Below are positions 18,988-20,567 of a stretch of 64,000 nucleotides of DNA, piece by piece. The stretch lies in sequence record NC_049438.1; one strand, written 5' to 3'. The DNA comes from Acinetobacter phage vB_ApiM_fHyAci03. The notes beneath the pieces are model-generated. The model saw nothing but the letters and a program-made list of their open reading frames with translations. It was not told the origin of the DNA and did no database searches. How positions within the stretch are numbered: the first letter of the stretch is position 1; every line of letters begins with the position of its first letter. A program made the translations under genes and the position numbers.

Positions 18988-20567
18988 CACAACAAAGACC
19001 AGGGTATCCTAACGTCAGTATCAAGCTATATGAAGATTATGACGCATGGAAAGAAAATAGATTTATTGAACTTGCAGCAACATTTACTACACTTACTCTT
19101 CGTGATAGCTTGTATGGCACAAATGAAGGCATTCTTCAATTTTATGATTCAAAAAATTTACACGCCAAATTAAATGGCGAACAAATAATTCAAATATCAC
19201 TTTCGAATGCAAACTCCAAGGATGTAATTACACGCATCTATGGATGTAATGACACATCAGTTTCAGTTGATGAAAAGGGCGATAATATTCTTGCATTCAA
19301 CCTCCGTCCTTTACACACGGTAGAAAATGTTAAATTCAGCCGTGCATTCTTTGCTAATGCAACAGAATCTATTGAAACTATGATAAAGTCAATCTACAAC
19401 AATAAAGCACAGCTTGCGCCTAAAGTTAAAGGATTGAATGTTTATGTTCCTCGTGTAGCATGGGTAAACACAATTGAAGATTATTTTGAATATGTTAGAG
19501 AAGTTGGCTTATCTGTTGAATCAGAAACACATGCATTCGTTTGGGAAGATTTTACCGGCATCAATATTTCGGATTACAAATTCATGATTGATCAGAAACC
19601 AAGAGTAATGGTAGTTGGTGATCCCGCACAAATTGGATCATATATCTCCAATATGAAAGAGCAATTGGCATATGACTTTACTTGGCTCGCTAAAACAAAT
19701 CGAAATGTACGAAACCCATTAGAGAATGTGACAGTGTATAGCCATTCATTCAACGACAAAGAAATTCAAAGAATTTCAATAGGCGAAGGCACTAACTCTG
19801 TTGTCGTATCTAGATCTGGCGGCTATTCTGAAATGACATATCGCAATGGATACGAAGAAGCATTTAGATTGCTTACTATGGCTCAATATGATGGTTATGC
19901 CACATGTAAAGTTATTGGTGACTTTACGCTGACACCATTGCAGAAAGTGATTTTCGGTGACAAAAAGGGACAATTCAAAACTGAATTTTATATTGATGAA
20001 GTAATTCATGTCATCACAAACAATTCATCTGAAACTCATTTATACTTGTTCACAAATGGTAAAGATCTTGTGCCAGTAAACATCGAAAAAATTAAAAATG
20101 AGATTGAGACCATTACACCACCATCAGATACAGTTCAACCTGAAGCATCAGCCGACAGGAAAGGTGCACAATGGGATCTTGATAAGTTATCAGAAGTAGT
20201 TTTGAAGAATGCACAAGGAAGAAAATCTACGGGTGAATGTGCATTGTATGTTCGTAAAGCGTTACAAGCAGCGCAATTACAAAGTTTCTTCGCTGGTGGA
20301 CTGGGTAATGCAAATGAAATGCCATCACGTCTAACACAGATGGGATGGATCGCAGTAGGCCAAAACGTTAAAAATGTCAAGAAAGGCGACATTGCAGTGT
20401 TCCAACGAACTAATACACGCCTTGGACAGAAATATGGTCATATTTGTATTTTTACCGGATCACAGTGGGTATCAGACTTTATCCAATCTAGTGTACAACC
20501 TAACAGAAATGATAATTTAACCTATACAGTATATAGAGCCCGTTATGGGTATAGTGCAGGAGCATAA
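18984..20567 (+). CDS. 27: Baseplate hub subunit gp27 fused to a C-terminal CHAP/NlpC-P60-like cysteine peptidase domain
   Basis: 527 aa. Residues 1 to about 390 align closely with T4 gp27 ([60 protein letters not shown]..., [31 protein letters not shown]). An extra ~140 aa carries [12 protein letters not shown]...[11 protein letters not shown]...YGHICIFTG, a Cys...His signature typical of CHAP domains. Confidence 0.9.
   Translation: [527 protein letters not shown]

What the first reader, a model, noticed from the sequence alone, without database searches (positions are those of the whole stretch)
20140..20567. Baseplate hub protein gp27 carries an extra C-terminal CHAP/NlpC-P60-like cysteine peptidase domain
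Residues 1 to about 390 align end to end with T4 gp27, which ends at about 391 aa. This ORF then continues for about 140 aa in the same frame. The extension contains [12 protein letters not shown] (Cys in a G-x-C-a-x-fV context) and, about 50 residues later, [11 protein letters not shown]...YGHICIFTG (GDIaVF...GHVaIf). This is the Cys...His arrangement diagnostic of CHAP / NlpC-P60 peptidoglycan amidase-peptidases.

In T4 the cell-wall-degrading activity of the injection machinery sits on gp5 (a lysozyme domain). gp27 is the hub trimer that docks gp5. A peptidoglycan hydrolase domain fused to gp27 would relocate, or add, a wall-digesting activity on a different hub component.
Basis: partly seen in the sequence, partly recalled or inferred. 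Interest (0 to 1): 0.65.

Follow-up and report, generated by a model that had tools for sequence, protein, structure and literature searches.

The report
Phage hub protein with wall-cutting domain
In this T4-like Acinetobacter phage the tail-tip hub protein gp27 carries a conserved extra cysteine-peptidase domain, related to the bacterial type VI secretion toxin Tae3, which most likely gives the phage a second cell-wall-cutting enzyme alongside the usual gp5 lysozyme.

Summary
ORF 18984..20567 (+) encodes 527 aa. Residues 4-381 are T4 gp27 (Pfam E 6e-80 and 2e-70; PDB 1k28_D E 4e-153). An 18-aa variable linker and a folded domain at residues 394-520 follow.

The domain is a homologue of the T6SS amidase effector Tae3: profile vs PDB 4hz9_A gives E 1e-29, and an AlphaFold model (pLDDT 95) matches it with TM 0.72-0.82. 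C419, H486 and S497 align with Tae3 C23, H81 and S92.

Cys and His are invariant in 37 fused gp27 proteins. dN/dS for the domain is about 0.05-0.12.

The fusion defines the Acinetobacter T4-like clade: 36 of 120 gp27 clusters carry it, and the other 84 are 343-406 aa.

gp5 keeps an intact lysozyme domain in relatives, so the activity is added, not relocated.

The nearest relatives of the domain sit in large phage proteins next to hub genes and in Acinetobacter Tae17-type T6SS effectors (40% identity).

The fusion was noted in GenBank in 2010 ("fused to Acinetobacter hypothetical protein"), and one NCBI record says "CHAP domain-containing protein". I found no paper that discusses it and no experiment on it.

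Verdict: a new variant of a known kind (tail-associated lysin). Interest is moderate.

The parts
18198..18209 (.). Two overlapping, divergent T4-type late-promoter motifs (TATAAATA). They lie in the 67-bp gap between gp26 (-) and gp51 (+). The + copy (18202-18209) would drive the operon 51-27-28-29-48-54.
   Evidence: 16 matches in the window against 7.4 expected, and none of 100 shuffles reached 16. One match on each strand falls here. Promoter function is inferred from T4 knowledge.
18232..18987 (+). gp51, the baseplate hub assembly protein. Its end overlaps the gp27 start by 4 nt.
   Evidence: Pfam T4_baseplate E 7e-57. Relatives annotate it as gp51.
18984..20567 (+). The whole gene 27: a 527-aa hub subunit with a C-terminal enzyme domain.
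18993..20102 (+). gp27 body (residues 4-373): the two Pfam baseplate-hub domains that form the trimeric hub torus.
   Evidence: PF09097 E 5.7e-80 (residues 4-198) and PF09096 E 1.8e-70 (residues 201-373). PDB 1k28_D E 4.4e-153. phrog_1135 E 1.6e-181.
20109..20162 (+). Linker (residues 376-393, [18 protein letters not shown]). It is rich in Pro/Ser/Thr/acidic residues and is presumably flexible.
   Evidence: Identity to the query falls to 6-30% with indels in distant fused homologues, while both flanking domains stay at 52-60% or more. dN/dS is about 1.8 against phage 133, from only 18 codons.
20163..20543 (+). Tae3-like papain-fold cysteine peptidoglycan peptidase/amidase domain (residues 394-520).
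   Evidence: Profile vs PDB 4hz9_A (Tae3) E 1e-29. AF2 pLDDT 95.4, pTM 0.90. Foldseek against 4hz9/4hzb gives TM 0.72-0.82. Pfam CHAP 28.2 bits. dN/dS 0.05-0.12.
20238..20240 (+). Codon of Cys419, the predicted nucleophile (equivalent to Tae3 C23).
   Evidence: Conserved in 150/152 homologues and 37/37 fused gp27. Aligned to C23. C23/H81 are catalytic per PMC11796386.
20439..20441 (+). Codon of His486, the predicted general base (equivalent to Tae3 H81).
   Evidence: Conserved in 152/152 and 37/37. Aligned to H81.
20466..20486 (+). The W-V-S-D-F-I-Q motif (residues 495-501). Ser497 is equivalent to Tae3 S92, the residue that orients the His in the Cys-His-Ser triad. Asp498 and Gln501 are invariant.
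   Evidence: The Cys-His-Ser triad of Tae3 is taken from PMC10318531.
20545..21117 (+). gp28, the distal hub subunit. Its start overlaps the last 23 nt of gene 27.
   Evidence: Pfam Phage_hub_GP28 E 1.3e-34.
21110..22834 (+). gp29, the tape measure / hub protein. Here it carries no lytic domain.
   Evidence: Pfam T4_Tape_measure E 7.5e-44 as the only family found. phrog_1283 E 7e-137.

Best explanation
Gene 27 of this Lazarusvirus-type Acinetobacter phage encodes the trimeric baseplate hub subunit gp27. Its C-terminus is extended, through an ~18-residue flexible linker, by a Tae3-family papain-fold cysteine hydrolase.

Shown:
- The domain architecture.
- Homology and fold match to Tae3.
- An intact, invariant Cys-His(-Ser/Asp) catalytic site.
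- Strong purifying selection on the domain.
- Vertical co-inheritance with the gp27 body across the Acinetobacter T4-like clade.
- Late-operon context among the hub genes.
- Co-existence with an intact gp5 lysozyme domain in relatives.

Inferred:
- Three copies are built into each virion at the tube tip next to the gp5 spike.
- On sheath contraction the hub is pushed through the outer membrane into the periplasm.
- There the tethered enzyme cuts peptidoglycan peptide stems or cross-links. [quoted passage not shown] The Tae3-like domain of A. baumannii Tae17 is described as an amidase.
- Meanwhile gp5 lysozyme cuts the glycan strands. Together they open a local hole for the tail tube.
- No immunity protein is needed, because gp27 has no export signal and stays in the cytoplasm during assembly.
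For: Architecture.

Tae3 homology:
- Single sequence E 2.5e-5.
- Profile E 1e-29 over the full length.
- Fold TM 0.72-0.82 with a pLDDT-95 model.
- The identity of 4HZ9 as Tae3, with catalytic C23/H81 and a Cys-His-Ser triad, comes from PMC11796386 and PMC10318531.

Catalytic residues are conserved.

Selection: dN/dS is 0.05-0.12 for the domain against 0.03-0.09 for the body.

Clade distribution:
- 36 of 120 gp27 clusters carry the domain, always at about residues 394-525.
- Body and domain identity co-vary, r = 0.83.
- The domain is present in phages 133, Ac42, Acj61, Acj9 and ZZ1.

The domain is a recurrent 'delivered wall hydrolase' module:
- The nearest relatives sit in 1000-2900 aa phage proteins that also carry VgrG3-like C, phage tail lysozyme or GH19 domains.
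- One is two genes downstream of a T4_baseplate gene on a 300-kb contig.
- One is directly upstream of the gp48-like gene in Campylobacter phage CP220.
- A 'tail tape measure' protein is the third-best viral structural match.
- The domain also occurs in an Acinetobacter LysM/Tae17-type protein (40% identity, E 2e-19), in an RHS protein and in T4SS-pilin fusions.

gp5 lysozyme is intact. A late promoter lies upstream. Tae3 bond specificity is from PMC3695027.
Against: - No biochemical or virion-proteomic data were found for any of these gp27 proteins.
- The Pfam CHAP score is borderline, and CHAP is not reported when the full-length protein is scanned.
- The cleaved bond is extrapolated from Tae3 (26-33% identity) and could differ.
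- Whether three extra ~15-kDa domains fit in the T4-type baseplate, and where, is unknown.
- The domain could be removed by processing before or after assembly, as happens to the lytic domain of TP901-1 Tal (PMC11409707).
- T4 itself infects well with gp5 lysozyme alone, so necessity is not obvious.
Confidence: 0.72

Rival explanations
1. The domain is an active wall hydrolase that works at the end of infection, not at entry. Unassembled or released gp27 would act as an auxiliary endolysin, or the domain is cleaved off and is absent from the mature virion.
For: PHROGs labels the related Campylobacter family 'endolysin'. The variable linker could be a processing site. TP901-1 Tal loses its lytic domain by proteolysis in part of the virion population.
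Against: The domain is fused to a stoichiometric structural protein made from a late structural operon. It has no signal or holin-type export feature and no internal start, since the only Met residues after residue 370 are 446 and 453, inside the fold. Its relatives are cargo of tail or secretion machines. A dedicated endolysin is normally encoded elsewhere in these genomes; that last point is my own knowledge and was not checked here.
Confidence: 0.1
2. The papain-like domain is a protease acting on phage proteins during hub assembly, for example maturation cleavage of gp5 or processing of gp29. It would not be a peptidoglycan hydrolase.
For: The fold belongs to the papain-like cysteine peptidase superfamily, which includes true proteases (PMC10318531). 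From my own knowledge, T4 gp5 undergoes a maturation cleavage next to gp27.
Against: Every characterised close relative acts on peptidoglycan: Tae3, the Tae17 domain and CHAP endolysins. The domain co-occurs with muramidase, LysM, SH3 and PG_binding modules. 84 gp27 clusters, including T4, assemble a hub without it.
Confidence: 0.05
3. The domain is retained as a non-catalytic peptidoglycan-binding anchor or purely structural decoration of the hub.
For: Non-catalytic NlpC/P60 domains exist; RipD appeared among the weak fold hits. Two ~745-aa variants replace Ser497 with Ala and add a VanY peptidase.
Against: Cys419, His486 and Asp498 are invariant in 37 of 37 fused proteins, and Cys and His in at least 150 of 152 homologues. 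That pattern is what a catalytic centre gives and is not needed for binding.
Confidence: 0.06
4. Artefact: two adjacent genes joined by a sequencing or assembly frameshift.
For: None found.
Against: The same uninterrupted ORF occurs in at least 68 phage records from many laboratories and in 36 protein clusters down to 52% identity. There is no start codon or separate gene signal in the linker.
Confidence: 0.01

Closest known systems
Tae3 (type VI secretion amidase effector 3) of Ralstonia pickettii, PDB 4HZ9/4HZB
   Same: The catalytic domain is homologous over its full length (profile E 1e-29). The fold matches (TM 0.72-0.82). The Cys, the His and the S-D-F-x-Q motif are the same (C23/H81/S92 correspond to C419/H486/S497). 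Both are delivered into a target cell's periplasm by a contractile-tail-type machine.
   Different: Tae3 is a free ~120-aa T6SS cargo effector with a cognate immunity protein, Tai3. Here the domain is covalently fused to a phage hub subunit, with hub genes as neighbours and no immunity gene. Pairwise identity is only about 26-33%. Bond specificity was not tested.
Tae17-type bifunctional T6SS effector of Acinetobacter (LysM + lytic transglycosylase + Tae3-like amidase; mBio 2024, PMC11796386)
   Same: It is found in the phage's own host genus. Its C-terminal domain is of the same family. The A. brisouii homologue P0068 has LysM at 113-156 and the domain at 483-598, and is 40% identical to the gp27 domain (E 2e-19). 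The logic is also the same: a glycan-cutting activity paired with a Tae3-like activity.
   Different: In Tae17 both activities are on one secreted polypeptide that is carried non-covalently by VgrG17. In the phage they are split between gp5 (lysozyme) and gp27 (Tae3-like). No bacterial relative close to the gp27 domain was found; the genome scan returned only a mis-binned phage.
Tal (tail-associated lysin) of Gram-positive siphophages, e.g. TP901-1 Tal
   Same: An N-terminal T4 gp27-like hub domain is followed by a C-terminal cell-wall-degrading domain on the same polypeptide, at the tail tip (PMC11409707).
   Different: Tal belongs to non-contractile tails and has a long fibre between the hub and its lytic domains. 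The lytic domain there is, from my own knowledge, an M23 peptidase and not a Tae3-like domain. No separate gp5 lysozyme spike is present there.
T4 gp5-gp27 cell-puncturing device (PDB 1K28, 5IV5)
   Same: The gp27 body is 57-59% identical and collinear with T4 gp27. The hub gene order 26/51/27/28/29/48/54 is the same. gp5 with OB, lysozyme and beta-helix domains is present in relatives.
   Different: T4 gp27 ends at residue 391 with no enzyme domain. In T4 the only hub-borne wall hydrolase is the gp5 lysozyme.
Evolved VgrG proteins of T6SS (e.g. V. cholerae VgrG3) and lysin domains in tape-measure proteins
   Same: These also carry a wall hydrolase as a covalent C-terminal or internal extension of a tail-tip or tail-lumen protein. 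The nearest relatives of this domain co-occur with the VgrG3-like C-terminal domain. One structural match is a tape-measure protein.
   Different: VgrG fuses gp27 and gp5 modules and belongs to a bacterial secretion system. Here gp27 and gp5 remain separate phage genes, and gp29 carries no lytic domain.

Membership tests
T4 gp27 baseplate hub subunit | Both Pfam hub domains (PF09097, PF09096) above their cut-offs, collinear with T4 gp27 | tested here: met
   268 and 237 bits against cut-offs of 27 and 25. Residues 4-381 align with 5-383 of 1k28_D at E 4e-153.
T4 gp27 baseplate hub subunit | Position in the hub gene cluster 26 / 51-27-28-29-48-54 | tested here: met
   Neighbours were identified by Pfam as T4_baseplate (gp26, gp51), Phage_hub_GP28, T4_Tape_measure and T4_tail_cap.
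T4 gp27 baseplate hub subunit | Trimer that docks the gp5 spike in the virion | not testable with these tools
   Inferred from 57-59% identity to gp27 proteins with solved complexes.
Tae3 family (T6SS amidase effector 3) catalytic domain | Significant full-length sequence homology to Tae3 (PDB 4HZ9) | tested here: met
   phmmer E 2.5e-5. Profile of 43 homologues: E 1e-29, 106 bits, profile positions 9-122 against chain residues 6-118.
Tae3 family (T6SS amidase effector 3) catalytic domain | Same fold | tested here: met
   The AF2 model has pLDDT 95.4. Foldseek puts 4hz9_A and 4hzb_A on top with TM 0.72-0.82 and probability 1.00.
Tae3 family (T6SS amidase effector 3) catalytic domain | Catalytic Cys23/His81 (plus Ser92) conserved | tested here: met
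   C419, H486 and S497 align to them. They are invariant or nearly so in 152 homologues.
Tae3 family (T6SS amidase effector 3) catalytic domain | [quoted passage not shown] | not testable with these tools
   The specificity is taken from PMC3695027. It needs muropeptide analysis.
T6SS Tae effector (as a system) | Free effector encoded beside a cognate periplasmic immunity gene and exported by a T6SS | tested here: not met
   The domain is fused to phage gp27. The flanking genes are gp51 and gp28. The genome is a T4-like phage. It is therefore a homologue of the catalytic domain and not a T6SS effector.
CHAP domain (PF05257) | Score above the Pfam gathering threshold | tested here: inconclusive
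   The domain alone scores 28.2 bits against 26. CHAP is not listed when the full-length protein is scanned. About 12 of 36 fused clusters carry a precomputed PF05257 hit. CHAP endolysins reach only E 7e-6 to 1e-3 against the profile.
NlpC/P60 (PF00877) | Pfam hit above threshold | tested here: not met
   No NLPC_P60 hit at E<=1 for the query. The relation is at superfamily level only (RipD and NlpC fold hits at E about 0.1 or worse).
Tae4 (PF14113) | Pfam hit above threshold, or fold match | tested here: not met
   17-19 bits against a cut-off of 27. Foldseek against 4jur_H gives E 0.18.
Tail-associated lysin (virion-associated peptidoglycan hydrolase) | Muralytic domain on a structural tail-tip protein | tested here: met
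   Architecture.
Tail-associated lysin (virion-associated peptidoglycan hydrolase) | Present in the virion and active on host sacculi | not testable with these tools
   No proteomic or enzymatic data were found.

The most novel reading that the evidence does not exclude
The gp27 enzyme belongs to the same family as T6SS effectors used by Acinetobacter itself (the Tae17 amidase domain, 40% identical). Periplasmic T6SS immunity proteins of the Tai3/Tai17 type in some host strains might therefore bind and inhibit the incoming phage enzyme. T6SS immunity genes, including orphan ones, would then act as incidental anti-phage barriers, and the phage domain would evolve under that pressure. A related reading is that the domain was captured from a T6SS or tail-lumen effector pool, which would make gp27 an 'evolved gp27' that mirrors evolved VgrGs. 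It may be needed because some feature of Acinetobacter (and Campylobacter) peptidoglycan limits gp5-type lysozyme.
Probability: 0.07. Interest if true: 0.8.

Novelty: new variant of a known kind. Interest (0 to 1): 0.5.

Why it matters
- It shows that the conserved T4 cell-puncturing device is not fixed. A whole clade of Acinetobacter phages, many of them in use as therapeutic candidates, carries two chemically different wall-cutting activities on the hub.
- The second activity comes from the enzyme family that bacteria fire at each other through the T6SS. This is a concrete example of cargo sharing between phage tails and T6SS.
- It suggests that hub or tape-measure proteins of T4-related phages are a general docking site for Tae3-like lysins.
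- It offers a small (~130 aa), well-folded enzyme naturally targeted at A. baumannii peptidoglycan as an enzybiotic candidate.
- It corrects uninformative ('baseplate hub') or wrong ('LysM domain protein') database names.

Tried and rejected
- The word-indexed search with the domain alone found a single protein. I replaced it with the exhaustive HMMER search.
- A single-sequence AlphaFold run gave a poor model, pLDDT 51. I discarded it in favour of the alignment-based model.
- Pfam's Tae4 hint looked attractive because of a Cys...His-x11-Asp pattern. It was rejected: it is below the cut-off, the Foldseek match to Tae4 is weak (E 0.18), and 4HZ9 turned out to be Tae3 and not Tae4.
- NCBIfam gave nothing useful.
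The single-sequence scan found only a mis-binned phage genome, so a direct bacterial donor could not be identified.
- Cluster look-ups of the large relatives and the small homologues returned almost no names.
- Literature searches found no discussion of the fusion. They covered Acinetobacter phage comparative genomics, the KARL-1 paper, the tail-fibre domain survey, and Acj9/Acj61 with gp27.
- Frameshift artefact and internal translation start were considered and rejected.
- The extension has slightly higher GC than the body (0.41 vs 0.35), but GC3 does not differ in that direction (0.257 vs 0.277). I found no sign of recent transfer.
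Full report
**Source and context**

The window is part of a T4-like Acinetobacter baumannii myophage. Gene 27 is 98-98.7% identical at the DNA level to phages Tonic, Konradin, Abraxas and KARL-1 (Straboviridae, Twarogvirinae, Lazarusvirus).

The finding lies in a canonical T4 hub module:
- gp25 (17122-17520, -)
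- gp26 (17520-18164, -)
- gp51 (18232-18987, +)
- gp27 (18984-20567, +)
- gp28 (20545-21117, +)
- gp29 (21110-22834, +)
- gp48 (22844-23935, +)
- gp54 (23932-24810, +)

gp26, gp51, gp28, gp29 and gp48 were confirmed by Pfam. gp25 and gp54 are assigned from position and T4 gene order only and were not scanned. Two overlapping divergent TATAAATA late-promoter motifs sit in the gp26/gp51 gap at 18198-18209. Gene 27 is therefore a late structural gene.

**Checking the observation**

Residues 4-198 and 201-373 match the two Pfam gp27 domains (E 5.7e-80 and 1.8e-70). Residues 4-381 align with residues 5-383 of T4 gp27, which is 391 aa (E 4.4e-153). The remaining ~146 residues are extra and in the same frame.

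**What the extension is**

Scanned alone, the extension just passes Pfam CHAP (28.2 bits against 26) and falls below the cut-off for Tae4. PHROGs links it to a Campylobacter-phage 'endolysin' family.

An exhaustive HMMER search found 822 homologues at E<=1e-3. In 152 aligned homologues the conservation is:
- Cys419: 150/152
- His486, Asp498, Gln501: 152/152
- Ser497, Trp495: 151/152
- Gly468, Asp469: 151/152 and 150/152

.

A profile of 43 diverse homologues hits one solved structure far above all others. That is 4hz9_A at E 1e-29, covering the whole domain. CHAP endolysins (Lys2972, LysK) reach only 7e-6 to 1e-3, and CwlO (NlpC/P60) 0.03.

4HZ9 chain A is Tae3, the T6SS amidase effector of Ralstonia pickettii. 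Its catalytic residues are C23 and H81 (PMC11796386), and it has a Cys-His-Ser triad (PMC10318531). C419, H486 and S497 align exactly with C23, H81 and S92.

With the alignment, AlphaFold gives pLDDT 95.4 and pTM 0.90. Foldseek puts Tae3 first (TM 0.72-0.82). A CHAP endolysin comes next (E 9e-4). RipD, Tae4 and NlpC proteins are at E about 0.1 or worse.

**Is the fusion real, and how old is it?**

The extension is present, in frame, in at least 68 phage records. These include the deep Acinetobacter T4-like lineages ZZ1 (83%), Acj9 (79%), Acj61 (76%), Ac42 (65%) and 133 (59%).

Among 120 gp27-family clusters, 36 carry the domain, always at about residues 394-525, with lengths of 518-534 aa. The other 84 are 343-406 aa and lack it. 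Those come from Escherichia, Salmonella, Klebsiella, Serratia, Yersinia, Pseudomonas, Shewanella and other phages.

Identity of the gp27 body and of the domain to the query co-vary across the 36 (r = 0.83). Cys, His and Asp are invariant in all 37 proteins. The linker (residues 376-393) is hypervariable with indels.

Nei-Gojobori estimates give dN/dS of 0.05-0.12 for the domain and 0.03-0.09 for the body. dS is near saturation, so these values are approximate.

This pattern fits a single old acquisition followed by vertical inheritance under purifying selection. It excludes a frameshift artefact.

Two clusters of ~745 aa (P0215, P0229) go further. They have gp27, a diverged Tae3-like domain with Ser497 changed to Ala, and a VanY zinc peptidase at E 5e-31.

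**Added or relocated?**

gp5 lies outside the window, which begins at a 658-aa ORF that I take to be the sheath gene gp18 from its size and position; this was not scanned. In Konradin, gp5 (594 aa) has the Gp5_OB, Phage_lysozyme and Gp5_C domains and aligns along its full length with T4 gp5.

In both Konradin and the divergent phage 133, the T4-lysozyme catalytic Glu11, Asp20 and Thr26 equivalents are conserved (DEG...D...PTIGIGH). The Tae3-like domain is therefore a second hub-borne activity and not a replacement.

**Where else the domain occurs**

- The closest non-gp27 relatives (41-56% identity) are inside proteins of 1000-2900 aa. Several of these also carry a VgrG3-like C-terminal domain, a phage tail lysozyme or a GH19 domain.
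- One of them lies two genes downstream of a T4_baseplate-family gene on a 300-kb phage-like contig.
- In Campylobacter phage CP220 the domain is inside an 1159-aa protein directly upstream of the gp48-like gene, which is the position of gp29.
- A 'tail tape measure' protein is the third-best viral structural match.
- More distant homologues include an Acinetobacter brisouii LysM protein with the Tae17 layout (LysM 113-156, domain 483-598). It is 40% identical to the gp27 domain at E 2e-19.
- Others are an RHS-repeat protein, T4SS-pilin fusions, and a pesticin-lysozyme + SH3 protein.

The module is thus typical cargo of injection and secretion machines. That the large phage proteins are gp29-like tape measures is inferred from position only.

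No close bacterial donor was found.

**Mechanism**

The mechanism is inferred. From established T4 knowledge (Kanamaru et al. 2002; the gp5 domain layout is also given in PMC4576200), the gp27 trimer caps the tail tube and docks the gp5 spike. On contraction the complex crosses the outer membrane and the gp5 lysozyme digests the glycan.

Here each gp27 would additionally hold, on an ~18-residue tether, a Cys-His hydrolase that attacks the peptide part of the wall. [quoted passage not shown] The Tae3-like domain of Tae17 is described as an amidase whose C488 is required.

Glycan-cutting plus peptide-cutting is the same pairing seen in Tae17 and in many endolysins. Self-protection is not needed, because gp27 has no export signal.

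**Known or new?**

GenBank notes of 2010 call the gene in phage 133 'fused to Acinetobacter hypothetical protein', and in Acj9 a 'putative fusion of gp27 ... and Acinetobacter hypothetical protein'. One NCBI record names the protein 'CHAP domain-containing protein' and another 'LysM domain protein'. About a third of the clusters carry a precomputed CHAP hit.

I found no paper that discusses the domain, assigns it to Tae3 or tests it. The searchable library is incomplete, so earlier work may exist.

The design has precedents:
- The Tal proteins of Gram-positive siphophages have a gp27-like N-terminus and a C-terminal lysin.
- Evolved VgrGs carry effector domains as C-terminal extensions.
- Tape-measure proteins can carry lysin domains.

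I therefore rate it a new variant of a known kind: a T4-type hub with a covalently attached Tae3-family enzyme in addition to gp5 lysozyme.

**Scores**

| Item | Score |
|---|---|
| Interest | 0.5 |
| Confidence in domain identity | about 0.95 |
| Confidence in the proposed role at entry | about 0.72 |

Noticed in passing
P0215 and P0229 (metagenomic gp27 homologues, 746 and 744 aa): These gp27 proteins have three modules: the hub body, a diverged Tae3-like domain (Cys and His kept, Ser497 changed to Ala, Gln501 to Ser) and a C-terminal VanY-type zinc peptidase (PF02557, E 5e-31). This is further accretion of wall-peptidase domains on gp27.
   Followed up: partly
L003 (Campylobacter phage CP220) 3742-7221; L004 10001-13981: In other T4-related or jumbo phages the same Tae3-like domain sits inside very large proteins (1159 and 1326 aa). 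These occupy the gp29 (tape-measure) position next to hub genes. RefSeq calls the CP220 protein 'endolysin', and the original record calls it 'membrane protein'.
   Followed up: partly
window 8625-10055 (-) and 14852-15646 (+): Two homing-endonuclease genes are inserted among structural and replication genes. A 476-aa HNH/homing endonuclease (phrog_3339, E 6e-133) lies between ORFs that I took, from position and size, to be gp23 and gp24. A 264-aa one lies directly after a DNA helicase gene (13341-14855), probably UvsW.
   Followed up: no
L007 2406-3253 (Acinetobacter phage AbTZA1, MK278860.1): The gp29 tape-measure gene is annotated as 'Lead, cadmium, zinc and mercury transporting ATPase', an obvious misannotation. 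Likewise, one NCBI record names the gp27 cluster 'LysM domain protein [Acinetobacter baumannii]'. That is probably a name transferred from Tae17-like effectors on a phage contig filed under the host.
   Followed up: no
L005 (CAVJPU010000002.1, 167,038 bp): A complete-length T4-like Acinetobacter-type phage genome is filed in the species-representative genome set as 'bacterium isolate ... cleanbin'. This is a phage mis-binned as a bacterial MAG.
   Followed up: no
window 18198-18209: Two TATAAATA late-promoter motifs on opposite strands overlap by 4 bp in the gp26/gp51 intergenic gap. This gives a compact divergent late-promoter pair.
   Followed up: partly
window 11466-12551 (-), 24834-26915 (+), 48361-52305 (+), 54227-58006 (+): Other landmarks are a Hoc-like head decoration protein, an Alt-like ADP-ribosyltransferase, the proximal long-tail-fibre subunit (1314 aa) and a 1259-aa distal tail-fibre protein. 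In the distal fibre only the N-terminus matches known fibre families, so it is a likely host-range determinant.
   Followed up: no
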